In this document: positions 4,596 to 17,100 of the stretch, one piece after another
How positions within the stretch are numbered: position 1 is the stretch's first letter
How the letters are laid out: each line of letters starts with the position of its first letter
From: an uncultured Thermoplasmatales archaeon
GTDB lineage: Archaea; Thermoplasmatota; E2; UBA202; DSCA01
Direction of reading: 5' to 3'
NCBI GenBank assembly: GCA_964514975.1
Contig: CAZESS010000003.1
Span: forward strand, 61,334 to 125,333
Length of the DNA: 64,000 nucleotides
Notes under the pieces: model-generated
Told to the model about the DNA's origin: nothing
Database searches by the model: none
The model's input: the letters and a program-made list of their open reading frames with translations, nothing else
Position numbers and translations under genes: made by a program

Positions 4596-4934
4596 GCTGT
4601 GCCTCCATCTCTACATCCGGATGGACTTATTTATAATTTAGCGTTGCAATGCTCTTTTATATATGCTGGCATCGTCGCGGCTCTATCCCGAAAGTCCGTA
4701 CAACGAGCATTATGCTATCTTCCACCACATGAGTTGCCTAGAAGAATGGGAAGAGGTAATTGTCTGTTCACAGGCATGTCACGATAGTTTCGGGATGAAG
4801 CCCATCGTCGCGATGAAAAAACGCATATTTTCATTTTGCCATTGAACATTGAGAGCGATGTCTCCCGCTAGCTACCGTGTCTGGCTCACGCTCTCTTTTT
4901 CGGGGGTTTTTCTAACCTCTTCTATCCTACCCAT

Positions 4935-7934: not shown

Positions 7935-9191
7935 ATGCGCCCGGTTTCATCGGCCATGCACCGGAGAGCATTGGTCGTCGTGATTGTGCTGGCCCTTGTT
8001 GTGGCACCGACGGTGATGCCGTTTTCCCAGGGGGCTGCAGATGACGATACGCTGGCGGATATCATCGCCGCCGTCGACACCGACGCGTTATACCACTACG
8101 ACAAGACCATCCAGGACGTGGGGCCGCATCCCACGGGCAGCGATGAATGCCGGGAGGTCGCCTCCTTTATCTATGACGAGTTTGCGAGCTACGGGCTCAA
8201 CGTGTCCTATCATGCATGGCATCGGAACGGTTTGAGCAGCCGGAACGTGGTGGCGACGCTTCCCGGGGAAACGAACTACACGGTCATCATGTCGGCACAC
8301 TATGACAGCGTCGATGATTCGCCGGGTGCGGACGACGACGGCTCCGGCGTCTCGAGCGTGCTGATGGCCGCCAGGGTGCTCAGCAGCTACAGCTTTCGCC
8401 ATACCGTCAAGTTCATCTGCTTCTCCGGCGAGGAGCAAGGCCTCTACGGCAGCGGCGCCTATGCCCGTGGCGCATACGAGCGGGATGAAGCCATCCTCGC
8501 CGTTCTGCAGCTCGACGGCGTCGGCCACGCCGTGAGCAGCAAGGGCGGCAGCACCATCCGGCTGTGTGCCAATGACGCCTCCGCATGGATTACCGATGCG
8601 GCACAGCGGGTGCTCGACAGCCACGGCGATGACATCGGCCTGTCCATCCACCGGAACCGGAACTTTGCGGGGAGCGACCACCAGTCGTTCATCAACTACG
8701 GCTACGAGGGCATATTTTTCCTTGAATACGAGTTCAACCCCTATTATCATTCGCCGGGGGACACCATCGAGCATGTCAACTTCAGCTACCTGACCAGGGT
8801 CTGCCGGCTGGCATCCGCCACTGTCGCCTCTATCGCAGGCCGGGAGATATCGCTGTACACGCGCATCGTCGAGCCGGACCGCGGCGCCATCTACGCTGGC
8901 AGCACACAGGTCATGGCGCTGGATGGGTATCGCACCGTCGTGCTCGGCCGTACGCATGTTCGCGCCGAGGTGCATGGCCCCGCCGTTGTCGAACGCGTCT
9001 TTTTCTATCTCGACGGCGAGGTACGGGGCATCGACGAGACGGCGCCCTACGAGCACGAGTATAGCAGGGTGGCGCTGTTCAGCCATGACGTCAGGGTCGA
9101 GGTCGAGGGAACAAATGCTGCGGACATGGCGCAGGTGTCCGTGGTGATGTTTAACCTCGTGCCTGGTCCATGGCTTGATGCTACCGGATGA
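7935..9191 (+). CDS. Secreted M28-family zinc aminopeptidase
   Basis: Signal peptide MHRRALVVVIVLALVVA. Contains HYDSV...DDDGSG...SGEEQGL metal-binding motifs of peptidase M28. Start ambiguous between 7935 and 7956. Confidence 0.85.
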   Translation: MRPVSSAMHRRALVVVIVLALVVAPTVMPFSQGAADDDTLADIIAAVDTDALYHYDKTIQDVGPHPTGSDECREVASFIYDEFASYGLNVSYHAWHRNGLSSRNVVATLPGETNYTVIMSAHYDSVDDSPGADDDGSGVSSVLMAARVLSSYSFRHTVKFICFSGEEQGLYGSGAYARGAYERDEAILAVLQLDGVGHAVSSKGGSTIRLCANDASAWITDAAQRVLDSHGDDIGLSIHRNRNFAGSDHQSFINYGYEGIFFLEYEFNPYYHSPGDTIEHVNFSYLTRVCRLASATVASIAGREISLYTRIVEPDRGAIYAGSTQVMALDGYRTVVLGRTHVRAEVHGPAVVERVFFYLDGEVRGIDETAPYEHEYSRVALFSHDVRVEVEGTNAADMAQVSVVMFNLVPGPWLDATG

Positions 9192-9270
9192 TGGAACGGC
9201 CCAGCAATCATGGCACGTGCTGTCACCCATCAGGCAACACATTTAAGAGCGTAGGGTATTTATCCCCACG

Positions 9271-10464
9271 ATGGATGTTTCAAAGCACTATTCAAGTAAT
9301 CTGAAAAGGATGAAATCCTCGGAGATACGGGACCTGCTGGCCGTCTCCCAGCAACCCGGCGTCATCTCGTTTGGCGGGGGGCTTCCCAACTCCAAGGCGT
9401 TTCCGGTTCACAAGATTCAGCGTATCGTCGAAGGAATCATCGAGGAGGAGCCAAACGTCGCCTTCCAGTATGGAACCACGAAGGGACAGCCCAAGCTTCG
9501 GAGGGCAATCGTGGACATGGCAGCCGACGAGGGCATCAACGCCGACATGGACCATGTGCTCATCACCGTCGGGTCGCAGCAGGCGCTCGACCTCATCGGC
9601 CGCGTGTTTCTCAACCCCGAGGACACCATCTTCCTGGGGCTGCCGACCTATCTGGGCGGCATCAACGTCTTTCGGGCCTACGGGGCCAACATGGTCGGCG
9701 TACCCGTCGACAGGGACGGCATGAACGTTGACATCCTTGAGGAAAAAATCATTGAGGCCGAGCGCGCTGGCAGGCCGGGCAAGCTCATCTACACGGTTCC
9801 CACCTTTCAGAATCCCGCCGGCGTGGAAATGTCCGCGGACCGGCGGCGGCGCATCGTCGAGCTGGCGGAGGAACACAACCTCGTGCTCCTGGAGGACGAC
9901 CCCTACGGCAAGCTCCGGTTTGAGGGGGAAGCATTGCCGCCGCTGCGTGCGCTCTCCGACAACGTGGTCCACATGGCGACGTTTTCCAAGGTGCTGTCAC
10001 CCGGCTTCCGGCTCGCCTACGTCATCGCTCCCAACGGCGTTGTCGACAAGATGGAGCTGGCGAAGCAGTCGGTTGACCTGTGCACGCCGACGTTCACCCA
10101 GTCGATTGCCCGCCGCTTCATATCCGAGGGGCACATGGACGAGCATCTGCCCAACATCATTTCCATGTACCGGCGGAAGCGGGATATCATGCTGGACGCG
10201 CTGGAAGAATATTTCCCTGACGGATGCGAGTGGACGCATCCCCGGGGCGGCATGTTTCTCTGGGCGACGCTGCCCGAGCACATAGACACCCGGGAGATGT
10301 TCCAGGATGCCATCAAGGAAAAAGTGGCATATGTCCACGGTCGCGCCTTCTACGTCAACGGGGGCGGCGGCAACACGATGCGGCTCAACTTTTCGAACCC
10401 GAGCGACGAGGACGTCACCGAGGGCATCCGGCGGCTCGGCGCCACGATAGAGAAAAACCTGTAG
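9271..10464 (+). CDS. PLP-dependent class I/II aminotransferase (AspAT/2-aminoadipate transaminase-like)
   Basis: 397 aa with fold-type I aminotransferase pattern, including the SFSKVLSPGFRLAY lysine region. Confidence 0.8.
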   Translation: MDVSKHYSSNLKRMKSSEIRDLLAVSQQPGVISFGGGLPNSKAFPVHKIQRIVEGIIEEEPNVAFQYGTTKGQPKLRRAIVDMAADEGINADMDHVLITVGSQQALDLIGRVFLNPEDTIFLGLPTYLGGINVFRAYGANMVGVPVDRDGMNVDILEEKIIEAERAGRPGKLIYTVPTFQNPAGVEMSADRRRRIVELAEEHNLVLLEDDPYGKLRFEGEALPPLRALSDNVVHMATFSKVLSPGFRLAYVIAPNGVVDKMELAKQSVDLCTPTFTQSIARRFISEGHMDEHLPNIISMYRRKRDIMLDALEEYFPDGCEWTHPRGGMFLWATLPEHIDTREMFQDAIKEKVAYVHGRAFYVNGGGGNTMRLNFSNPSDEDVTEGIRRLGATIEKNL

Positions 10465-10465
10465 G

Positions 10466-11551
10466 CTAGTCCGCGCGGCGTATCCCGTCACCGGATAGCT
10501 CGTTCCATGATGCACCGGCGCATGAGATACACAGATGGCGACCGTTTTTTTCGAGGGTGCGGGTGGCCATCACCGGCTCGTGGCAGGATTCGCAGATGAT
10601 GCTGTCATGGATGGGCGCATACGAGGGTATGTCGATGGTGACCTGTTCCACGGTGAACAGCTCCTCGACGTCCTGCTGGAGGAGGTCGAAGGCACGCTCC
10701 TGTGCCATCCGCCGGTAGCGGGCTTCGTCTTCGTCGGTGCCCTCCCTGTCTTTGACGACCTTTGTGAACAGCTTCGCGAACGCGTCATCCCGCTGCTTGC
10801 GTAGGAGAGCGGCGATGCGGATGCCCTCGCCGTCTCTGCCTGCCAGGGTGAACGCGGTTTTGCCGAGGTCGCGGAACACCAGGGCGTTGTTGCCCAGGGT
10901 GCAGCCGGTGACGTACTGCACGCCGTCGGCGAAGCAGTTGTTTGTCTCGACGATTGCCATGACGTGTTCCATGCCGTCTGAGCGCCAGCTCATCTGCTGC
11001 ACGGCATGCGCGGCGGCCATGACGCCCATCGCCAGCCCGGGGCAGAAATGGCCGTGGAGCTCGCCGGCCCGTAATAGCAGTTCTTCCAGGACATGGGTGC
11101 GTATGAGGCGCATTATCTCGCTGCGGGGACTGGCTTTTACGTGTTCCCGGATGACCTGCTGTTGTTCTGTTTCGTCGAGCGACGGCGCGTATGGCTTGAT
11201 GTCCAGCACCGGGGTGCCGTCGATGGCGTCCAGGCCTTTTACCCGCACCGTGGTGCCATCTCGTTCAAGCAGCCTGGCGGTGGTAACACCGATGCCGCTC
11301 GGCCGGTGCGGGCTCCGCGAGGCGAAGACGCCTTTCACCCCCCCGCTGTAGGTCGGCCCCCGGAGCTCGTAGCTCTCGGAGCGATGAAAATGGAAGACGA
11401 CCTGGATATACCTGCTGTCTTCGATGCGGTAGAGGCCGTCCGCATACCGCTCGTGTATCTCGATGACACTTTCCTCCTGGCGCATTTCATGCGGGTCCAT
11501 GGGCTCCGTCATGTCGTTGTGGACGACGCCGATTTCCCTGATGTCCTGCAT
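10466..11551 (-). CDS. Fusion protein: TrmO/TsaA-like (YaeB) N-terminal domain plus FwdE/FmdE-like domain with C-terminal zinc ribbon
   Basis: N-terminal VVFHFHRSE...GVFASRSPHRPSGIGVT matches TrmO. C-terminal HGHFCPGLAMG...CESCHE...CISCAG matches FmdE (PF02663-like). Start taken at the internal ATG at 11551 (MQDIREIGVV). Confidence 0.75.
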   Translation of the reverse strand: MQDIREIGVVHNDMTEPMDPHEMRQEESVIEIHERYADGLYRIEDSRYIQVVFHFHRSESYELRGPTYSGGVKGVFASRSPHRPSGIGVTTARLLERDGTTVRVKGLDAIDGTPVLDIKPYAPSLDETEQQQVIREHVKASPRSEIMRLIRTHVLEELLLRAGELHGHFCPGLAMGVMAAAHAVQQMSWRSDGMEHVMAIVETNNCFADGVQYVTGCTLGNNALVFRDLGKTAFTLAGRDGEGIRIAALLRKQRDDAFAKLFTKVVKDREGTDEDEARYRRMAQERAFDLLQQDVEELFTVEQVTIDIPSYAPIHDSIICESCHEPVMATRTLEKNGRHLCISCAGASWNELSGDGIRRAD

Positions 11552-11573
11552 GTGATGCACACCCCGGCGGCTT

Positions 11574-12416
11574 TCATAAGCCTTTCCGTGCCGCGAGCAG
11601 GCCGCTGCCACGGCGGCGCTTGGGCGACAGCGCTATCGAGACGGCAAACCCGCTTGCTGAGACGATGACGATGGACGCCCCGATGGGAAAATCGGTGAGC
11701 AGGGAGAGCACGAAGCCGGCAATGCAGCTGACGATGCCGATGAGAGATGAAGCGGTGACGATTTTTTTGAAGTCGTAGAAAAACTGGTAGGCCGTCGATG
11801 TCGGGTTGACGATGAGCGCGAACACCAGCAGCCCGCCGACAAGGCGGAGGGAAAGCGAGACCGCGGCGGCGGTGAAAAACAGGATGACAAAGTAAAACGC
11901 GGTGGTGTTGACCCCGGCGGCTTCGGCCAGCTTCCGGTGGAAGAGCACCGCCACGATTTCCTTGTAAAAGAGGATGGTGAACGCTGTGAGGGCCGCGGCC
12001 AGCAGCGCCAGGAGCAGCACCATCTCGTGGGTGACGGCGAAGATGCTTCCCCAGAGGATGCGGAGCGCCGTACCCGAGGCAGCCTGCCCGGGTATCATGC
12101 TCAGGAAGATGAACGCAAGGGCGATGGTCGCCGAAAACAGAAAGCCGATAATCACGTTGCTTTCCAGCCTGGCTTTTTCACCCAGCGGGCCGATGAGCAT
12201 AGCGGTACCCAGTGAAAAAGCGACTGCGCCGATGAGCGGGTCGATGGCGGCCATGATGCCGAAGGCGGCGCCGGCGAAGGCAGCATGGGACATGCAGTAT
12301 CCGATCGAGGACAGGTTCATCCGGACGACGAAGATGCCGACGGTCGAGCAGACGAAGCCTGCAAGCACCGCCGCGGCTATCGAGGTGAGCAGCAGCGCCG
12401 GGGGAAGCGCGATCAT
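11574..12416 (-). CDS. Metal ABC transporter permease (ABC-3 / ZnuB-MntB family)
   Basis: Eight TM segments of ABC-3 type. The start ATG overlaps the upstream ATPase stop (ATGA). Confidence 0.85.
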   Translation of the reverse strand: MIALPPALLLTSIAAAVLAGFVCSTVGIFVVRMNLSSIGYCMSHAAFAGAAFGIMAAIDPLIGAVAFSLGTAMLIGPLGEKARLESNVIIGFLFSATIALAFIFLSMIPGQAASGTALRILWGSIFAVTHEMVLLLALLAAALTAFTILFYKEIVAVLFHRKLAEAAGVNTTAFYFVILFFTAAAVSLSLRLVGGLLVFALIVNPTSTAYQFFYDFKKIVTASSLIGIVSCIAGFVLSLLTDFPIGASIVIVSASGFAVSIALSPKRRRGSGLLAARKGL

Positions 12417-13171
12417 GCTGCGTCCTGCTCCCAAAAAATACGTGACACCATAGCCGACGACATCATTTCGTCTCTGGTGCCCTGCATCACGATGCGGCCG
12501 CTGTCCATGACGACGACGCGGGAACATGCAGTGGGGATGGACTGCAGGTCGTGGGAGACCATTATCACGGTGACACCGTCGTGCTCGTTTACATCGCTGA
12601 TAATCTCGGCCATCTGACGCCTTGCGGAGATGTCCAGGTGCGAGAACGGTTCGTCGAGGAGGAGCAGCGATGGCTCCTGGGCGAGGGCTCTGGCGAGCAG
12701 GAGCTTCTGGAACTCGCCGCCGGACATTTTGCCCACCGGACGGGTGGCAAATGCGCTCATGCCGACCAGCTCCATTTTTTCCTGGACCACCTGCCGGTCG
12801 TGCTGCCGTGGAAACCGGAGGAGACCTATTTTTCCCGTGCGGCCGGTCATCACCACGTCTCGGGCCAGGAACGGGTCGCGAGGGTCGAGGTCGAAGTTTT
12901 GTATGACGTATCCGATGTGTTTGCGGAGGGCATGCGCGTTGGCGGTGATTTCTTTGCCGAATACGCGGCCGTGGCCGGCGGTGTATTCGAGGAGGCCGTT
13001 GATGGTTTCGAGGAGCGTGGTCTTCCCGGCGCCGTTGGGACCGATGACGGACACCATGTCTCCACGTTTCACGGCGAGGTCGATGCCGTGGATGACGGGG
13101 ATGCGTTCTCCCTCGTAGATGGTGGCTATGTCGTGGAGTTCGACCGCCGGCTCGCCGCTGATGTCATGCAT
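12413..13171 (-). CDS. Metal ABC transporter ATP-binding protein (ZnuC-like)
   Basis: Walker A GPNGAGKTT, ABC signature LSGGEFQKLLLAR, Walker B LLLLDEP. Confidence 0.9.
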   Translation of the reverse strand: MHDISGEPAVELHDIATIYEGERIPVIHGIDLAVKRGDMVSVIGPNGAGKTTLLETINGLLEYTAGHGRVFGKEITANAHALRKHIGYVIQNFDLDPRDPFLARDVVMTGRTGKIGLLRFPRQHDRQVVQEKMELVGMSAFATRPVGKMSGGEFQKLLLARALAQEPSLLLLDEPFSHLDISARRQMAEIISDVNEHDGVTVIMVSHDLQSIPTACSRVVVMDSGRIVMQGTRDEMMSSAMVSRIFWEQDAA

Positions 13172-13574
13172 CGTTGGTGTGGATGATGAAAAGCTCCTCG
13201 TCGCTCCGCTGGTAGATGTCTGCCGAATATGCCTCGATGTTTTCGTCTGTTACCTCGGCTTCGATTTCCTCTCTGATTGCTGGCCTGAGCGTCAGGTGCA
13301 GCGAGCCGCCGTCGTCACCGGTGAACCGGGCGCCGGCTTTGGCGTCGCCGTGGACGGCGAGGTTTCCCTTGCCCAGCGTGCATCCGGAGGCCAGCTGGAT
13401 GCCGTCGACGATGCAGGATATGGGTGTCGTGATGCCGGTCAGTGCGACGGCGTGCTTTGCGAAGGGGTCGTCGCCGAGGTGCTTGTTGGCGAGGAGACCC
13501 ATCCGGTAGCCGATGACCGCGTAGGGACCGAGATGGCCGTGGAACTGTTTTATCTGTTCCAGGCTTTCATCCAT
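13164..13574 (-). CDS. Small FwdE/FmdE-like domain protein (N-terminal domain only, no zinc ribbon)
   Basis: FHGHLGPYAVIGYRMG motif. Sits between the SBP and ATPase genes of the metal importer operon. Confidence 0.7.
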   Translation of the reverse strand: MDESLEQIKQFHGHLGPYAVIGYRMGLLANKHLGDDPFAKHAVALTGITTPISCIVDGIQLASGCTLGKGNLAVHGDAKAGARFTGDDGGSLHLTLRPAIREEIEAEVTDENIEAYSADIYQRSDEELFIIHTNDA

Positions 13575-13575
13575 G

Positions 13576-14547
13576 TTATTTTCTCCTGTACAGCATGAGC
13601 AGCACGACGGCTGCGCCGGCGCTTATGATGGTCAGCGTGAGCGTGACATCTCGCTGCAGCTTCAGGGCGAGGATGTCGCTTTCCAGCTCGTTGACTTCGC
13701 CCTGTTTGTGCTGGTGGACCGTGATGCCGGAGACGAGCTGTTCGGTGTTGTAGGTGAGCATCTCGAGGTAGGTGCCGGCTCCCGGTGCTGCCCCGGGGAA
13801 GTTGGTGAGCACGACGTGGGAGACTTGGGCGTCGGCTGCGACGGATGCACCGAAGTCGGTGCCGCTCTGCAGGTTGTCGACGACCGCGCAGACGTCGCTG
13901 CTGGCAGCAGCGGCGGTGACGTTGAGTATGTCCCGGGTGGACAGCCGCTCGGGCGGCGCATATGCGGCGGTGACGTCGAAGCCGAGCCATGCGACGAATG
14001 CCCGCTGCCATTGCATGCACACGACTTTTTTGCCCGTGTATCCCTTGCTTGTTATCATCTGCTGTGCTTCCTCGGCGGTCTGGTTTATGTTTTCCTGATA
14101 TCGGGCTGCATTGTTCTGTATGACCTGCTGGTGCGCCGGCAGGGCACCGGTAAGATTGTCCTGGAGTGCTTTCACGTAGGTTCGAGCTCCTGCTGGAAGG
14201 TTCCATTCGCCGAGGCCGGCACAGTTGATGCGTGTGGGGGTGACCCCTGAGGCATCGAGGAGGTCCTGGAGCCATGGCTCCCATCCAAGGGCGATGATGA
14301 TGTCTGCGGAGGCGATGCGCTGCACGTCGCTGGGGCGGGTATCGAAGTGTGCCGGGCAGACGCCGGCAGGCATGATGTGGTCGACGGTGCTGTCGGTGCC
14401 GTTAAGCAGCCGGGTTGTGAAGTCGGCCAGGATGGTATTTGTGCAGACCACGTTGACGGTGTCCTGGTCTGCTGCGTTTGCGTGGAGGGGCGCCATGAGG
14501 GCGGCAAGGAAGAGCGTTGCTGTTATGAGATATATTGTTTTTTTCAT
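13576..14547 (-). CDS. Metal ABC transporter substrate-binding protein (ZnuA/TroA family) with signal peptide and C-terminal TM anchor
   Basis: Signal MKKTIYLITATLFLAALMAPLHA. TroA-like motifs (HFDTRPSDV). C-terminal hydrophobic anchor LTLTIISAGAAVVLLMLY. Confidence 0.8.
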   Translation of the reverse strand: MKKTIYLITATLFLAALMAPLHANAADQDTVNVVCTNTILADFTTRLLNGTDSTVDHIMPAGVCPAHFDTRPSDVQRIASADIIIALGWEPWLQDLLDASGVTPTRINCAGLGEWNLPAGARTYVKALQDNLTGALPAHQQVIQNNAARYQENINQTAEEAQQMITSKGYTGKKVVCMQWQRAFVAWLGFDVTAAYAPPERLSTRDILNVTAAAASSDVCAVVDNLQSGTDFGASVAADAQVSHVVLTNFPGAAPGAGTYLEMLTYNTEQLVSGITVHQHKQGEVNELESDILALKLQRDVTLTLTIISAGAAVVLLMLYRRK

Positions 14548-14622
14548 GGTTTCACCGTAGCAATTTTTCTGTTTTCGTAATACCGCCCGCTATATGAACC
14601 TTGCGGTAGCAACAGATAAATA

Positions 14623-14657
14623 ATGGTAGCACGTTTGTGGGTGTATGGTGCTACCAT
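14623..14657. promoter_or_regulatory. Perfect 10-bp inverted repeat ATGGTAGCAC-N15-GTGCTACCAT overlapping the nikR start; candidate NikR operator
   Basis: Arms at 14623-14632 and 14648-14657. Related C(C/G)GTAGCAA half-sites at 14555-14563 and 14604-14612 lie in the divergent promoter region. TATA-like ATAAATAA at 14616-14623. Confidence 0.45.
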
Positions 14658-15075
14658 GACCGTCCAGCGGGTCGGTGTCTCCTTCGAGCCGGAGCTGCTC
14701 GAACAGTTCGACAACGTGATAGCAAAAAAGGGCTACGCCAACCGCAGCGAGGCGATACGCGACCTCGTCCGCGAGTCCATCGCCGAGGCGGCGCTGCAGC
14801 GTGAGAGCGGCGACGTCATGGGAACCCTGACCATCGTCTACGACCACGACGAAGGCAACGTGACAAACAAGCTGCTGCACCTCGAGCACGGCCACCTGGC
14901 CGAGATACTCTCGACGACGCACATTCATGTCACGAAGCATCTCTGCCTGGAGGTGCTGGTTATCCAGGGAGAGGCATCGAAGGCACAGATGCTGGCCGAC
15001 CGCATCACCGCCCTGAAGGGCGTCAAGCAGGGGGAGCTGGTGCTGACACCGCTGGCCGGTGAGGCACATGAATGA
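14656..15075 (+). CDS. nikR: Nickel-responsive transcriptional regulator NikR (RHH plus metal-binding ACT-like domain)
   Basis: N-terminal MTVQRVGVSF...NRSEAIRDLV ribbon-helix-helix. C-terminal HLEHGH...HIH...C nickel-site pattern. Confidence 0.85.
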   Translation: MTVQRVGVSFEPELLEQFDNVIAKKGYANRSEAIRDLVRESIAEAALQRESGDVMGTLTIVYDHDEGNVTNKLLHLEHGHLAEILSTTHIHVTKHLCLEVLVIQGEASKAQMLADRITALKGVKQGELVLTPLAGEAHE

Positions 15076-15985
15076 GAGGACAGAGGCAGTCATCAAGATA
15101 GACGGCCTGACCAAGCACTACGGCGACGTGGTCGGCGTCCAGGACCTGAGCCTTGACGTGCACCGGGGCGAGATCATGGGCTTCCTTGGCCCCAATGGCG
15201 CCGGGAAGACCACGACGCTCAGGAGCTGCTTGGCCCTGCTGTCAAAGACCGCCGGCACAATAACGATATTCGGCATGGACTCGCACCGCGATGCGGTGGC
15301 CATTCGCCGGCGGACGGGCTATCTCCCCGGAGACTTCGGGCTCATCCCCGCGGTGAGCACGAGGCGCTATCTTCAATATCTTTTGTCGCTCAGCGACTGC
15401 TGCTCCGACGAGAAGCTCCGCTCGCTGGCTGACCGGCTGGAGCTCAACCTGGACAGGAAGACCAACGAGCTGTCGAAGGGCAACCGGCAGAAGGTTGGCA
15501 TCATCCAGGCGCTGATGGCCGGGCAGGACCTGATCATCATGGACGAGCCCACATCGGGGCTCGACCCGCTCATGCAGCAGGAGGTCTACCGCATCATGCG
15601 GGAGGAACAGCAGGACGGCAAGACCATTTTCATGTCGTCGCACATCCTGGCGGAGGCCGAGCAGGTCTGCGACCGGGTGGCCATCATACGGAACGGCAGG
15701 CTCGAGGTGGTCGAGGAGGTGCAGGCGCTGCAGGAAAAAACGGGGAAAGTCCTGGAGGTCGAGTTCCGTGACCCCGTGAATCTCGACGAGTTCGACATGG
15801 ACGGGGTGACCGATCTGCGCAGGGAGGACGGAAAAATCATGCTGACCATCCATGAAAACCTCGACCGGGTCGTCAAGACGGTGTCCGGCCACAAAATCCT
15901 GAACATGCAGCTTTACACCTACAGCCTCGAGCAGCTCTTCCTGAAATACTACGGCGAGGAAGACAGGACGGAGGGTGAACCATGA
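15068..15985 (+). CDS. ABC-2 type transporter ATP-binding protein
   Basis: Walker A GPNGAGKTT, LSKGNRQKV signature, IIMDEP Walker B. Overlaps nikR 3' end (cotranscribed). Confidence 0.9.
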   Translation: MNERTEAVIKIDGLTKHYGDVVGVQDLSLDVHRGEIMGFLGPNGAGKTTTLRSCLALLSKTAGTITIFGMDSHRDAVAIRRRTGYLPGDFGLIPAVSTRRYLQYLLSLSDCCSDEKLRSLADRLELNLDRKTNELSKGNRQKVGIIQALMAGQDLIIMDEPTSGLDPLMQQEVYRIMREEQQDGKTIFMSSHILAEAEQVCDRVAIIRNGRLEVVEEVQALQEKTGKVLEVEFRDPVNLDEFDMDGVTDLRREDGKIMLTIHENLDRVVKTVSGHKILNMQLYTYSLEQLFLKYYGEEDRTEGEP

Positions 15986-17100
15986 AGGGGCGCATGGCGG
16001 CCATGGAGCTCCGGTCGGGCTGGAAGGGGCTGGCCATGTTCGGCGTGCTCGTGCTCCTGGTGTCGGCAGGCATGCCCCAGATACTGCCGGCCTACCGCGA
16101 GTCGTTCACCGAGGACCTGGAGGGGGCAAACCGCGTCCACATCGAGGTGCCGGAGCAGCAGGACGCCATGATAAACCTGTCCTGGGAACCGGTCGAAAAC
16201 GCAACTGGCTACGTGGTGCTCGAGGACAACTCGTCGGCGTTTCTGACCTCCCGGGTACAGTACTTCGGCAACATGACGAACATTTCATTTCCCATGAACT
16301 TCGAAGAAAAACGGTACTATGCGGTCATGGCCATCCACACCAACGTGAGCAACGCCTCATGGATGGACCTGCTGTCGGCGCAGCGGCAGCTCGTCGGCAT
16401 CGCCGCGACCGGCACGCCGGACAACCCGTTCGAGGAGCTCATGGACAACCCCGCATACCAGGGATTTTCCCGCGGCCGGGCAATCAATCCCCTCGAGGTG
16501 AAAGGTTTCATCATCCTCGAGTTTTTCAGCTGGTGGTGGATGCTCGCCGGGCTGTTCATAGCCTATCTCTCCGTATCGGTCATCGCCGGCGACTTCGAAA
16601 ACCGGCGCATGGACATCTTTCTCTCAACGCCCATCTCCCGCCGCCGGTACATCCTGGAAAAATTCCTGTCCCTGGCGCTCATCGCCCTGTATGTCATCGG
16701 GGTTGCCACCGCCGGGCTGATAGCCGGGGTTGCCAGCATCGGTGCCCTTGACAAGCTGCCGCCACATGCCGCGTTTCTGTCGCTGTTCGGCTGTTTCCCG
16801 TTTCTGCTGGTCATCGCCACCGTCGGCATCCTGAGCGCCGTCACATTCCAGAAGGTCAAGGTGGGCATGGGCGTGACCTTCGCCGCGGTGTTCGCCCAGT
16901 TTTTCCTGTACACCTTCGGGAATTACACCGATGCACTTGCATGGATGAAGACCCTCAGTATTTTCAACTACTGGGACTATGCGGCGCCGTTGCTCGACGA
17001 CGTGTTCAAGCTCGGTGACTTCACCATCCTGGCCGTTGTCGCCGGCGTCATCCTCGCTGCGGGGCTCTGGCTCTTCGACCAAAAGGACGTGCCCGCCTAG
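15982..17100 (+). CDS. ABC-2 family permease with large extracytoplasmic loop after TM1
   Basis: ATGA overlap with the ATPase. N-terminal TM, ~140-aa loop, then five TM segments. Confidence 0.8.
   Translation: MKGRMAAMELRSGWKGLAMFGVLVLLVSAGMPQILPAYRESFTEDLEGANRVHIEVPEQQDAMINLSWEPVENATGYVVLEDNSSAFLTSRVQYFGNMTNISFPMNFEEKRYYAVMAIHTNVSNASWMDLLSAQRQLVGIAATGTPDNPFEELMDNPAYQGFSRGRAINPLEVKGFIILEFFSWWWMLAGLFIAYLSVSVIAGDFENRRMDIFLSTPISRRRYILEKFLSLALIALYVIGVATAGLIAGVASIGALDKLPPHAAFLSLFGCFPFLLVIATVGILSAVTFQKVKVGMGVTFAAVFAQFFLYTFGNYTDALAWMKTLSIFNYWDYAAPLLDDVFKLGDFTILAVVAGVILAAGLWLFDQKDVPA

What the first reader, a model, noticed from the sequence alone, without database searches (positions are those of the whole stretch)
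10466..14660. TroA-type metal importer operon carrying two FwdE-like proteins (one fused to TrmO), divergent from nikR with a perfect palindromic operator
The operon order on the minus strand is SBP, small FwdE-like, ATPase, permease, TrmO-FwdE fusion. FwdE/FmdE-like domains have no defined role outside formylmethanofuran dehydrogenase operons. Finding two here, one fused to a tRNA-methyltransferase-like TrmO domain and one as an N-domain-only form, suggests a metal-chaperone or metal-delivery role. nikR is divergent. A perfect inverted repeat ATGGTAGCAC-N15-GTGCTACCAT (14623-14657) overlaps the nikR start, and two C(C/G)GTAGCAA half-sites lie toward and just before the SBP start (14555-14563, 14604-14612). 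This palindrome differs from the E. coli and Helicobacter NikR boxes.
Basis: partly seen in the sequence, partly recalled or inferred. Interest (0 to 1): 0.65.

Follow-up and report, generated by a model that had tools for sequence, protein, structure and literature searches.

The report
NikR-controlled nickel importer with FmdE helpers
An archaeal five-gene metal-uptake operon, probably switched off by the nickel sensor NikR through a conserved array of DNA sites, carries two FmdE-type metal-binding proteins that comparative genomics ties to nickel handling in many microbes, although one of them is annotated as a tRNA methyltransferase.

Summary
On the minus strand lie a ZnuA/TroA-type binding protein, a small FmdE, an ABC ATPase, an ABC-3 permease and a TrmO_N–FmdE–zinc-ribbon fusion. 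nikR is divergent, and the perfect repeat ATGGTAGCAC-N15-GTGCTACCAT sits at 14623-14657.

A 10-nt perfect repeat alone is not rare in 64 kb. The signal comes from elsewhere:
- The repeat is part of five GTnnnAC half-sites in the 108-bp intergenic region, spaced N13/N22/N13/N15.
- All five are invariant in four orthologous loci while their surroundings vary.
- The same architecture recurs in operons about 50% diverged.
- The half-sites fit the NikR box predicted in 2004 (GTGTTAC-N13/14-GTAACAC, also found reversed).
- That pattern is about 350-fold enriched upstream of nikR in 1.13 Mb of fetched loci.

NikR keeps all four high-affinity nickel ligands. The small FmdE is present in all eight related ZnuA-type operons examined. 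In three of them hypA and an archaeal-type hypB candidate follow the permease, directly in one and within 2 kb in two. In other phyla the fusion follows NikR-linked FecCD-type importers in 18 of 24 informative loci, once directly ahead of an F430 biosynthesis cluster.

Best reading: a NikR-repressed nickel importer with cytoplasmic FmdE-type nickel-handling proteins. It is a new variant of a known kind, and no step has been tested experimentally.

The parts
13576..14547 (-). Substrate-binding protein of the ZnuA/TroA class (cluster A-I). It has an N-terminal signal peptide and a C-terminal membrane anchor (…VVLLMLYRRK). Its metal site is atypical: a CPxH motif, with the canonical second and third His ligands absent.
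   Evidence: PF01297 at 3e-29. It is far below every NCBIfam Zn/Mn equivalog cut-off. Alignment A3 shows invariant C35, C64-P-x-H67, C109, E114, D224 and H244. The CPxH motif is present in 105 of 120 homologues. Alignments to solved Mn/Zn SBPs place Ala at the canonical first His position.
13164..13574 (-). Small cytoplasmic FmdE-type protein, core domain only, with motif FHGHLGP (the Cys of FHGHxC is replaced by Gly).
   Evidence: PF02663 at 1.7e-21. It matches 2GVI and 2GLZ. It is present in all 8 related operons. All 120 homologues carry HGHxGP.
12413..13171 (-). ABC transporter ATPase.
   Evidence: PF00005. It overlaps the small FmdE gene by 8 nt.
11574..12416 (-). ABC-3 family permease (type II importer). 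The start is taken as ATG 12416.
   Evidence: PF00950 at 2.1e-46. The orthologue in L001 is called as 279 aa with a 4-nt overlap.
10466..11551 (-). Fusion protein of a TrmO_N beta-barrel, an FmdE core (HGHFCPG) and a C4 zinc ribbon. It is annotated in GenBank as tRNA methyltransferase TrmO.
   Evidence: Pfam PF01980 + PF02663 + PF01258. Alignment A2. PDB matches only to the separate domains. AF2 model with mean pLDDT 73.
14557..14563 (.). Half-site H5, GTAGCAA, abutting the GGTGA ribosome-binding site (14552-14556) of the SBP gene.
   Evidence: invariant in 4 orthologous loci.
14577..14583 (.). Half-site H4, GTAATAC, 13 nt from H5.
14590..14598 (-). TATA-like element (TCATATAG on the minus strand), a candidate promoter element of the transporter operon. 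This is inferred.
   Evidence: Sequence. An A/T-rich element sits at the same place in L001, L002, L004 and L087-L089. No transcript data.
14606..14612 (.). Half-site H3, GTAGCAA.
14615..14622 (.). A/T-rich TATA-like element (ATAAATAA) inside the 13-nt spacer between H3 and H2, a candidate TATA box of nikR. This is inferred.
   Evidence: Sequence. The equivalent spacers in L087-L089 are TTTAAA-rich.
14623..14657 (.). Perfect inverted repeat ATGGTAGCAC-N15-GTGCTACCAT. It contains half-sites H2 (14626-14632, GTAGCAC) and H1 (14648-14654, GTGCTAC).
   Evidence: The arms are invariant and the spacer variable in orthologues. It matches GTRNYAC-N13-15-GTRNYAC, which is about 350-fold enriched upstream of nikR genes.
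14656..15075 (+). nikR, a nickel-responsive ribbon-helix-helix repressor of 139 aa.
   Evidence: Pfam RHH_1 + NikR_C. NCBIfam NF003381 at 162.7 bits against a cut-off of 105. It matches 2BJ1 at E = 2e-39, and H76, H87, H89 and C95 (E. coli numbering) are all conserved.
15068..17100 (+). ABC ATPase (15068-15985) and ABC-2 membrane protein (15982-17100), translationally coupled to nikR. They would fall under the same promoter and operator. Their role is unknown.
   Evidence: The same arrangement occurs in L001 and L002 but not in L004.

Best explanation
This is a nickel-uptake locus of a Thermoplasmatota archaeon.

Regulation (inferred). When nickel is sufficient, Ni-NikR tetramers bind pairs of GTnnnAC half-sites in the 108-bp divergent intergenic region. 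The array is H1-N15-H2-N13-H3-N22-H4-N13-H5. These pairs bracket or overlap the TATA-like elements and the likely transcription start regions of both promoters. Binding would therefore block assembly of the archaeal pre-initiation complex. It would repress both the transporter operon and nikR itself, together with its coupled ABC-2 genes. When nickel is scarce NikR leaves the DNA and the operon is expressed.

Transport (inferred). A membrane-anchored ZnuA/TroA-class binding protein with an unusual Cys/His site (CPxH) captures Ni(II) outside the cell. It hands the metal to an ABC-3 permease/ATPase importer.

Cytoplasmic handling (inferred). The small FmdE (HGHxG) and the TrmO_N-FmdE-zinc-ribbon fusion (HGHxC) take up, buffer or pass on the imported nickel to client enzymes. 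In three sister operons, hypA and a candidate archaeal-type hypB lie just after the permease.

The TrmO-like barrel is most likely not a tRNA m6t6A methyltransferase. It is probably a ligand-binding or AdoMet-binding module of this nickel system.

Shown here: gene content, conservation of the operon and the half-sites, enrichment of the box at nikR genes, and conservation of the NikR nickel ligands. Inferred: DNA binding by NikR, metal specificity, and the chaperone role.
For: NikR identity:
- Full-length match to P. horikoshii NikR (E = 2e-39) and E. coli NikR, with His76, His87, His89 and Cys95 conserved.
- It passes the NCBIfam NikR equivalog.

Operator:
- Five half-sites cluster in 108 bp.
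- 35 of 35 half-site columns are invariant, against 50 of 97 other intergenic columns, in four orthologous loci. Fisher p is about 8e-9.
- The same H1-N15-H2-N13-H3 … H4-N13/14-H5 layout occurs in L087-L089, whose SBPs are only 47-51% identical.
- GTRNYAC-N13-15-GTRNYAC occurs 26 times in 1.13 Mb. Fourteen of these lie within 170 bp upstream of a nikR start, 3.7 per kb against 0.011 per kb.
- The half-sites differ by one base from the published predicted NikR box and its reversed form (PMC545781).

Nickel context:
- hypA plus an Mrp/ParA-type ATPase follow the permease directly in L089 and within 2 kb in L087 and L088. Archaeal HypB is of this ATPase type (PMC13202556).
- The fusion follows a PBP2-FecCD-ATPase importer in 18 of 24 informative loci from many phyla. 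nikR is present in 8 of those 18.
- TonB-dependent receptors lie inside those nikR operons in Gram-negative lineages.
- HupE/UreJ lies directly after the fusion in L014.
- In L007 the importer and fusion are followed directly by genes whose Pfam families fit cfbA, cfbE, cfbD, cfbB and cfbC of F430 biosynthesis.
- NikR-type boxes precede the operon or the fusion in L007, L011 and L021, where no nikR is adjacent.

FmdE metal site:
- The FHGHxC motif coordinates Zn/Ni in crystal structures, and FmdE genes were reported to lie mostly next to metal transporters (PMC2954224).
- 118 of 120 fusion homologues keep HGHxC, and all 120 keep the C4 ribbon.

Against a tRNA role for the fusion:
- There is no DPRxxY C-terminal domain.
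- AF0241 Gln22 is replaced by Glu, and the PRQ motif is absent in 0 of 120 homologues' favour, that is, none of 120 has it.
- Stand-alone TrmO_N genes behind the same importers share the P-x-E-M motif.
- m6t6A has not been found in archaeal tRNA (PMC4132733).
Against: - There is no experimental datum for any step.
- The SBP lacks the canonical cluster A-I ligands, and no nickel-specific cluster A-I SBP is known to me. Specificity therefore rests on context alone.
- A published view holds that a NikR homologue next to ZnuABC-type genes in Methanothermobacter may respond to zinc (PMC3087415).
- No hypA, hydrogenase, CODH or urease gene is visible in this 64-kb window, so a nickel client in this organism is not shown.
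- Transcription starts are unknown, so the promoter-occlusion geometry is a model.
- The half-site pattern was partly defined from the same regions used to test it.
- About a quarter of the fusion genes (6 of 24) are not next to a transporter.
- The fusion does pass the TrmO equivalog cut-off, though only just (98.7 against 93.25 bits).
Confidence: 0.7

Rival explanations
1. The locus imports zinc, manganese or iron, as ordinary ZnuABC/TroABCD/MntABC systems do. The NikR-like regulator would then respond to that metal rather than to nickel.
For: The SBP and permease belong to the ZnuA and ABC-3 Pfam families. Database names call the homologues Zn-uptake proteins. Kaster et al. suggested that a NikR homologue next to ZnuABC-type genes may be zinc-responsive (PMC3087415).
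Against: All four high-affinity nickel ligands of NikR are conserved. The operator fits the NikR box class. hypA and an Mrp/ParA-type ATPase lie in or next to sister operons. The SBP lacks the canonical His ligands of Zn/Mn binders and scores far below every Zn/Mn equivalog cut-off.
Confidence: 0.12
2. The FmdE-type proteins are not chaperones. They are regulators: metal sensors that trans-inhibit the ABC ATPase, or DNA/RNA-binding factors acting through the zinc ribbon.
For: The zinc ribbon matches the DksA/TraR C4 family. Axelrod et al. list transcriptional regulation, protein-protein interaction and metal sensing as possibilities. The small FmdE gene sits between the SBP and ATPase genes in every operon.
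Against: The small FmdE has no zinc ribbon. A dedicated regulator, NikR, is already present. hypA and the candidate hypB follow the permease in three sister operons, where this locus has the fusion. In L007 the fusion lies between the importer and the candidate nickel chelatase gene.
Confidence: 0.15
3. The fusion is a genuine tRNA (m6t6A37) methyltransferase, as annotated, and merely neighbours the transporter.
For: It passes NCBIfam TIGR00104 (98.7 bits against a cut-off of 93.25). Three of the four AdoMet contacts of AF0241 are conserved.
Against: There is no DPRxxY C-terminal domain, which E. coli TrmO needs for activity. Gln is replaced by Glu in the AdoMet site, and the PRQ motif is found in none of 120 homologues. 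Synteny with metal importers holds in 18 of 24 loci across phyla. Kimura et al. doubt that archaeal YaeB homologues make m6t6A.
Confidence: 0.04
4. The palindrome is a chance repeat or a transcript-level hairpin, not a protein-binding operator.
For: Perfect 10-nt inverted repeats with short spacers occur about 3 times per 64 kb by chance.
Against: The arms are invariant while the spacer varies in orthologues. In L088 the equivalent half-sites are in direct orientation, which could not form a hairpin. The pattern is strongly enriched at nikR genes. No Rfam family matches.
Confidence: 0.03

Closest known systems
E. coli NikR / nikABCDE (Ni-NikR repressor with operator GTATGA-N16-TCATAC)
   Same: The regulator family and all four high-affinity nickel ligands are the same. 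The operator is a two-half-site site spanning about 28-29 bp, next to a nickel-uptake ABC operon. Repression under nickel sufficiency is expected.
   Different: The half-site sequence is GTAGCAC-type. There are five half-sites in an array serving two divergent archaeal promoters. The transporter is of the ZnuA/ABC-3 class, not the NikA/Opp class. The beta-strand DNA-reading residues are R-G-S here, against R-T-T in E. coli.
Predicted 'type 2' NikR box GTGTTAC-N13/14-GTAACAC, and its reversed form GTAACAC-N13-GTGTTAC (Rodionov et al. 2004, PMC545781)
   Same: The window site GTAGCAC-N15-GTGCTAC is the reversed form with one symmetric base change per half-site. Identical GTAGCAC half-sites occur in nikR-linked boxes of L018, L055, L040 and L088.
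   Different: The spacer is 15 nt rather than 13-14. N15 was seen here only in the archaeal loci, next to the nikR start. Additional direct-repeat pairs are present. The regulated transporter is not nikMNQO.
TroABCD / ZnuABC / MntABC cluster A-I metal importers
   Same: The SBP (PF01297), ABC-3 permease and ATPase have the same architecture, and the genes are co-operonic.
   Different: The canonical His/His/His(Glu)/Asp metal site is not conserved. It is replaced by CPxH and invariant Cys residues. The regulator is NikR rather than Zur, TroR or MntR. An FmdE gene is inserted between the SBP and ATPase genes.
Helicobacter NiuBDE / CeuE-FecDE with the TonB-dependent receptor FrpB4 (nickel-chelate uptake through a type II ABC importer; from my own knowledge and the abstract of PMC7840056)
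   Same: The distant relatives of this locus (L013, L016, L018, L019, L022 and others) are nikR - (TonB receptor) - Peripla_BP_2 - FecCD - ATPase operons. This is the same transporter class, and it is linked to NikR.
   Different: Those Helicobacter systems have no FmdE or TrmO_N gene. The window itself uses the ZnuA/ABC-3 class instead.
FmdE family structures 2GLZ, 2GVI and 3D00 (Axelrod et al. 2010, PMC2954224)
   Same: The core fold and the C..DG.Q…GC..G motif are shared. The fusion keeps FHGHxC and the treble-clef/ribbon Cys4. The authors noted the association with metal transporters and the UPF0066 fusion.
   Different: The small FmdE has lost the Cys ligand. Neither gene is near formylmethanofuran dehydrogenase genes. 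The link to nickel and NikR was not made in that paper.
TrmO/YaeB class VIII AdoMet methyltransferase (Kimura et al. 2014, PMC4132733)
   Same: The beta-barrel TrmO_N domain is shared. The Arg, Asp and Lys AdoMet contacts are conserved.
   Different: There is no C-terminal DPRxxY domain. Gln is replaced by Glu. The domain is fused to FmdE and lies in nickel-transport operons.
Nickel metallochaperones HypA/HypB, UreE and SlyD
   Same: The proposed role is the same: cytoplasmic nickel acceptance and delivery. hypA and a candidate hypB follow the permease in three sister operons, directly in L089 and within 2 kb in L087 and L088.
   Different: There is no sequence or fold relationship, and the function is unproven.

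Membership tests
NikR (nickel-responsive RHH repressor) | N-terminal ribbon-helix-helix domain plus C-terminal NikR_C (ACT-like) tetramerisation domain | tested here: met
   PF01402 and PF08753. Full-length alignment to 2BJ1 and 1Q5V. NCBIfam NF003381 at 162.7 bits against a cut-off of 105.
NikR (nickel-responsive RHH repressor) | High-affinity square-planar nickel site: His76', His87, His89, Cys95 (E. coli numbering) | tested here: met
   All four align to H, H, H and C in the window protein (…LEHGH…THIHVTKHLCLE…).
NikR (nickel-responsive RHH repressor) | Nickel-dependent binding to a two-half-site operator | not testable with these tools
   Only indirect evidence: conserved half-site array and about 350-fold enrichment of the box upstream of nikR.
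NikR box of the GTGTTAC/GTAACAC type (Rodionov 2004) | Two 7-nt half-sites GTGTTAC/GTAACAC separated by 13-14 nt, in either relative orientation | tested here: inconclusive
   The half-sites match 6 of 7 bases each (GTAGCAC, GTGCTAC), in the reversed orientation reported for D. psychrophila. The palindrome spacer is 15 nt, while the H3-H2 and H5-H4 pairs have 13 nt.
Cluster A-I metal SBP (ZnuA/TroA/PsaA, PF01297) | Family fold and profile match | tested here: met
   PF01297 at 102.8 bits against a cut-off of 29.
Cluster A-I metal SBP (ZnuA/TroA/PsaA, PF01297) | Canonical metal ligands (His in DPH, His in DPHxW, His/Glu in HDAF, Asp) | tested here: not met
   The first His position aligns to Ala, with His shifted by one residue (CPAH). 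The DPH loop before Trp is absent (GEW). The third position is Gln. Only Asp224 is kept. The protein is below all Zn/Mn equivalog cut-offs.
FmdE family (PF02663) | Core alpha+beta domain profile | tested here: met
   Fusion 126.6 bits and small protein 77.1 bits, against a cut-off of 22.9. The fold matches 2GVI, 3D00 and 2GLZ.
FmdE family (PF02663) | Metal-coordinating motif FHGHxC | tested here: inconclusive
   The fusion has LHGHFCPG, so it meets the feature; 118 of 120 homologues do. The small protein has FHGHLGP, so the Cys is lost; this holds in 120 of 120 homologues.
FmdE as subunit or accessory of formylmethanofuran dehydrogenase | Co-transcription with fmd/fwd catalytic subunit genes | tested here: not met
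   No fmd/fwd genes occur in the operon or in any of the 8 related loci. Only 13 of 208 family members had that context in 2010.
TrmO (tRNA m6t6A37 methyltransferase) | TrmO_N beta-barrel domain | tested here: met
   PF01980 at 103 bits. TIGR00104 at 98.7 bits against a cut-off of 93.25. Fold match to 2NV4 and 7BTU.
TrmO (tRNA m6t6A37 methyltransferase) | AdoMet contacts Gln22, Arg82, Asp111, Lys122 (AF0241 numbering) | tested here: inconclusive
   Arg, Asp and Lys are conserved and invariant in A2. Gln22 aligns to Glu (DPHEMR). None of 120 homologues has the PRQ motif.
TrmO (tRNA m6t6A37 methyltransferase) | C-terminal domain with the DPRxxY motif, required for activity in E. coli | tested here: not met
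   The C-terminal part is FmdE plus a zinc ribbon. No TrmO_C domain or DPRxxY motif is present.
TrmO (tRNA m6t6A37 methyltransferase) | Methylation of t6A37 in tRNA-Thr | not testable with these tools
   Not testable here. m6t6A has not been detected in archaeal tRNAs (PMC4132733).

The most novel reading that the evidence does not exclude
The FmdE core domain and the transporter-linked clade of TrmO_N barrels may form a widespread, so far unrecognised nickel-trafficking module of NikR regulons in archaea and many bacterial phyla. The two occur alone, split or fused. In this reading the module receives nickel, or a nickel-ligand complex, from type II ABC importers of either SBP class. It then supplies nickel-cofactor pathways such as F430, hydrogenase and CODH. 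The AdoMet-type pocket of the barrel would be re-used to bind an amino-acid-like nickel ligand or to couple delivery to AdoMet. If so, thousands of 'TrmO' annotations are wrong, and the long-open question of what FmdE does becomes testable as metal delivery.
Probability: 0.4. Interest if true: 0.75.

Novelty: new variant of a known kind. Interest (0 to 1): 0.6.

Why it matters
- Nickel uptake in archaea has been catalogued as NikMNQO, NikABCDE and NiCoT only (PMC2667541). This locus adds a NikR-linked ZnuA/ABC-3-class importer with an atypical Cys/His binding protein. It occurs in a large uncultured lineage: about 250 SBP homologues, mostly Thermoplasmatota.
- The role of FmdE has been open since the 1990s and was still called undetermined in 2026 (PMC13355700). 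The synteny found here gives it a concrete and testable nickel-handling hypothesis. The synteny covers NikR, hypA plus a candidate hypB, TonB receptors, HupE/UreJ and a putative F430 cluster.
- More than 3,000 TrmO_N-FmdE fusion proteins are named tRNA methyltransferases. That naming rests on a profile passed only just and is probably wrong.
- The five-site operator array offers a compact model for metal-dependent repression of divergent archaeal promoters. Half-site orientation flips between orthologues, which fits a symmetric GTnnnAC half-site.

Tried and rejected
- Exact look-up of the window's own fusion protein in the contig index found nothing. Context was therefore taken from relatives 59-92% identical.
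- The 2006 J. Bacteriol. paper by Rodionov et al., which may list archaeal NikR sites and regulon members, is not held. I cannot exclude that it already lists such operons.
- A riboswitch or other RNA explanation was checked with Rfam at permissive E-values over 10000-15500. Only one chance-level hit appeared.
- The palindrome as a statistically exceptional repeat was rejected, because about 3 such repeats are expected per window.
- The single motif GGTAGCAC with one mismatch is not enriched window-wide: 44 found against 41 expected.
- The structure model of the fusion (pLDDT 73) and the PDB fold search gave only the two known separate domains and no new fold relation.
- tblastn for hypA, the Mrp/ParA-type ATPase and DUF1858 in the window found none.
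- The sigma-70 promoter scan was not used because the organism is an archaeon.
- Literature searches for TrmO/YaeB/UPF0066/FmdE together with NikR or nickel found no paper making the link.

Full report
**1. What is in the sequence**

The minus strand between 10466 and 14547 carries five tightly packed genes:
- A ZnuA/TroA-class substrate-binding protein at 13576-14547.
- A 136-aa protein made only of the FmdE core domain at 13164-13574.
- An ABC ATPase at 12413-13171.
- An ABC-3 permease at 11574-12416, taking the ATG that overlaps the ATPase stop, as in the orthologue called in L001.
- A 361-aa fusion of a TrmO_N barrel, an FmdE core and a C4 zinc ribbon at 10466-11551.

Intergenic distances run from -8 to +22 nt, so this is one operon.

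nikR is divergent. Its ORF begins at ATG 14623. However, alignments to P. horikoshii and E. coli NikR start at the Met encoded at 14656. The upstream ATG is ACG in L001, and the 14656 codon is GTG in L004. I therefore take 14656 as the start.

nikR overlaps by 8 nt an ABC ATPase gene, followed by an ABC-2 membrane protein gene (15068-17100).

**2. The palindrome and the half-sites**

ATGGTAGCAC-N15-GTGCTACCAT at 14623-14657 is exact, and so are the two CSGTAGCAA sites.

A perfect 10-nt inverted repeat with a short spacer is expected about three times per 64 kb. Two are present. The repeat as such is therefore not evidence.

The intergenic region holds five half-sites of the form GTnnnAC(A):

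| Half-site | Start | Sequence |
|---|---|---|
| H5 | 14557 | GTAGCAA |
| H4 | 14577 | GTAATAC |
| H3 | 14606 | GTAGCAA |
| H2 | 14626 | GTAGCAC |
| H1 | 14648 | GTGCTAC (inverted) |

The spacers are 13, 22, 13 and 15 nt.

Five of the 16 matches to GTARYAM in the whole window lie in these 108 bp. About 0.03 are expected. That pattern was chosen after seeing the sites, so the p-value is only indicative.

**3. Conservation**

Five contigs from related Thermoplasmatota MAGs and metagenomes carry the same five-gene operon (fusion 77-92% identical). Where the contig reaches that far, nikR is divergent (L001-L005).

In the alignment of the four complete intergenic regions:
- All 35 half-site columns are invariant.
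- Only 50 of the 97 other columns are invariant.
- The N15 spacer of the palindrome varies.

Three much more distant operons show the same order of elements. Their SBPs are 47-51% identical (L087-L089). The order is: nikR start, half-site, N15, half-site, N13 with a TTTAAA-like core, half-site, an A/T-rich element, then half-site, N13/14, half-site just before the ribosome-binding site.

Orientation of individual half-sites flips between orthologues. For example, L088 has GTAGCAC-N15-GTAGCAC, a direct repeat. This fits a protein reading a nearly symmetric GT-N3-AC core. It does not fit an RNA hairpin.

**4. Relation to known NikR boxes**

Rodionov et al. (2004) predicted a second box, GTGTTAC-N13/14-GTAACAC. 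They also found it with reversed half-sites, GTAACAC-N13-GTGTTAC (PMC545781). The window site is that reversed form with one symmetric base change per half-site and a 15-nt spacer.

I scanned all fetched sequence (1.13 Mb) for GTRNYAC-N13-15-GTRNYAC and found 26 hits.
- Fourteen lie within 170 bp upstream of a nikR start. That is 3.7 per kb against 0.011 per kb elsewhere.
- Several of the rest precede the transporter or the fusion gene in loci without an adjacent nikR (L007, L011, L021, L030).

The palindrome is thus a member of a known predicted operator class, not a new type.

**5. NikR**

The protein passes the NCBIfam NikR equivalog. It conserves His76, His87, His89 and Cys95 of the E. coli high-affinity nickel site. 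The residues on the DNA-reading beta-strand are R-G-S, against R-T-T in E. coli and R-S-S in P. horikoshii. This is compatible with a different half-site.

**6. Why nickel**

- In L089 the permease gene is followed directly by hypA and an Mrp/ParA-type ATPase. In L087 and L088 the same pair lies within 2 kb. Archaeal HypB is of that ATPase type (PMC13202556).
- The fusion protein is widespread: 3,386 hits in archaea and bacteria. Among 26 full-length genomic loci from other phyla, 24 have informative upstream sequence.
- In 18 of those 24 the fusion directly follows a Peripla_BP_2-FecCD-ATPase importer. nikR is present in 8 of the 18.
- In Bacteroidota, Poribacteria and Chitinispirillaceae loci a TonB-dependent receptor sits between nikR and the binding protein.
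- In L014 a HupE/UreJ permease gene follows the fusion.
- In a Methanomicrobia MAG (L007), a NikR-type box is followed by the importer and the fusion. Next come a small CbiX, a Mur-ligase homologue, a nitrogenase-like pair and a CobB/Q-type amidase. I read these, from my knowledge of the pathway, as the complete coenzyme F430 set cfbA, E, D, B and C. Early tetrapyrrole genes follow.
- FmdE-only and TrmO_N-only relatives occupy the same position behind such importers. In Methanosarcina the two domains are adjacent separate genes.

**7. The accessory proteins**

Crystal structures of FmdE-family proteins show a Zn/Ni ion held by the FHGHxC motif. Their authors already noted that most family members lie next to metal-ion transporters, and that a fusion with UPF0066 (TrmO_N) exists (PMC2954224).

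- The fusion keeps HGHxC (118 of 120 homologues) and the Cys4 ribbon (120 of 120).
- The small FmdE subfamily has lost the Cys in all 120 homologues.
- The TrmO_N part keeps the Arg, Asp and Lys that hold the AdoMet amino-acid moiety in AF0241.
- It has Glu for Gln22, lacks the PRQ motif in all 120 homologues, and lacks the DPRxxY C-terminal domain that E. coli TrmO needs.
- It passes the TrmO equivalog profile only just, 98.7 against 93.25 bits. This explains the GenBank names.
- The AF2 model (pLDDT 73) and the fold search return only the two separate known domains.

**8. The binding protein**

It belongs to PF01297 but not to any Zn/Mn equivalog. It lacks the canonical His ligands. Instead it has an invariant C-P-x-H motif and further invariant Cys, Glu, Asp and His residues. 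Its homologues, about 250, are almost all from Thermoplasmatota or unclassified Euryarchaeota. It carries a signal peptide and a C-terminal membrane anchor, read directly from the sequence.

**9. Mechanism proposed**

Shown:
- The parts, their conservation and the synteny.
- The enrichment of the box at nikR genes.
- The conservation of the NikR nickel ligands.

Inferred from established NikR biology:
- Ni-NikR tetramers bind half-site pairs.
- The pair H3-N13-H2 brackets the A/T-rich element at 14615-14622.
- H2-N15-H1 covers the region from that element to the nikR start.
- H5-N13-H4 lies between the second A/T-rich element (14590-14598) and the ribosome-binding site of the SBP gene.
- Occupancy would exclude TBP/TFB or RNA polymerase at both promoters.

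Inferred from context only:
- The substrate is Ni(II).
- The FmdE proteins accept or distribute it in the cytoplasm.

Unknown: the role of the TrmO_N barrel.

**10. What is known and what is new**

Already described or proposed:
- NikR-repressed nickel uptake and the GTGTTAC-type box.
- The association of FmdE genes with metal transporters.
- The existence of the FmdE-TrmO fusion (PMC11237513).
- A ZnuABC-type cluster next to a NikR homologue in Methanothermobacter, read there as possibly zinc-responsive (PMC3087415).

Not found in the searchable literature:
- A NikR-linked ZnuA/ABC-3 importer with an obligatory FmdE gene.
- The systematic placement of TrmO_N/FmdE genes in NikR regulons.
- Their position next to hypA/candidate hypB and a putative F430 gene cluster.
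- The five-site operator array.

One key paper, Rodionov et al. 2006, could not be read.

**11. Verdict**

It is a new variant of a known kind of system. Its value lies mainly in giving FmdE and the 'archaeal TrmO' clade a testable nickel-related function.

Noticed in passing
L007:4887-17066 (Methanomicrobia MAG JAUVXU010000001.1): A NikR-type box is followed by Peripla_BP_2-FecCD-ATPase and the TrmO_N/FmdE fusion. Directly after come a small CbiX, a Mur-ligase-like gene, Oxidored_nitro, a CobB/Q amidase, a NifH-like gene, NAD_binding_7, GlutR and ALAD. I read this as a nickel importer placed in front of a complete coenzyme F430 (cfbAEDBC) and early tetrapyrrole cluster.
   Followed up: partly
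window 15068-17100 (+): nikR overlaps by 8 nt (ATGAATGA) an ABC ATPase gene, followed by an ABC-2 membrane protein (PF12679, the NosY-type family). The arrangement is conserved in L001 and L002. In L004 a TetR + MMPL pair is inserted instead. A NosD-like 827-aa protein lies beside nikR in L087. The function and any link to nickel are unknown.
   Followed up: partly
L087:9650-11418, L088:11061-12202, L089:9047-10193: hypA plus an Mrp/ParA/CbiA-family ATPase (the archaeal HypB type) lie after the ABC-3 permease in operons that lack the fusion. They follow directly in L089 and within 2 kb in L087 and L088. A small DUF1858 gene is conserved next to nikR in all three.
   Followed up: partly
L018:2995-5016, L022:1696-3951, L055:5913-7976, L070:4892-7033: TonB-dependent outer-membrane receptor genes sit inside nikR-headed operons, ahead of the FecCD-type importer and the FmdE/TrmO gene, in Bacteroidota, Poribacteria and Chitinispirillaceae. 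L070 has two adjacent NikR-type boxes at 4807 and 4839, just upstream of the receptor.
   Followed up: partly
P0001-P0120 (homologues of window 10466-11551): GenBank names these fusions 'tRNA (N6-threonylcarbamoyladenosine(37)-N6)-methyltransferase TrmO'. The window protein passes TIGR00104 by only 5 bits, and none of 120 homologues has the PRQ motif. This is probably a systematic over-annotation.
   Followed up: yes
L083:1835-2900, L085:7929-9030, L086: In Methanosarcina the FmdE+zinc-ribbon protein and the TrmO_N protein are separate, overlapping adjacent genes in the reverse order (FmdE first). This is a split counterpart of the fusion.
   Followed up: partly
L014:3119-3703; L011:1881-3122 and 4311: A HupE/UreJ-family permease gene directly follows the fusion in L014. 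In L011 a NikR-type box precedes the fusion, and an octopine/nopaline-dehydrogenase-family gene lies 1.4 kb upstream on the other strand. That family includes opine-metallophore synthases.
   Followed up: no
L016:4233-5030, L028:1497-2270, L030:10612-11367, L076, L077: A PP-loop ATPase (NAD_synthase/QueC/DUF7411-type hits) lies next to nikR or the TrmO_N gene in Halanaerobiales and Spirochaetia loci. It could be LarE-like (nickel-pincer cofactor synthesis). This was not tested.
   Followed up: no
L029:9134-9658; L027:9239-10461: In L029 a protein with only a NikR_C domain follows the fusion. In L027 a second, 387-aa FmdE-domain protein follows the fusion and is preceded by a GTAGCAC-N14-GTAGCAC box.
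   Followed up: no
L006:7322-11256: The closest fusion homologue outside the window's clade (59% identical) is not next to a transporter. It lies between an HTH_10 regulator and a radical-SAM + UbiE-type methyltransferase pair.
   Followed up: no
window 13550-14284 (-) and other long antisense ORFs in 9000-16500: Many long ORFs overlap the real genes on other frames and strands, for example a 244-aa Arg-rich ORF. These are by-products of about 60% G+C, not genes.
   Followed up: no
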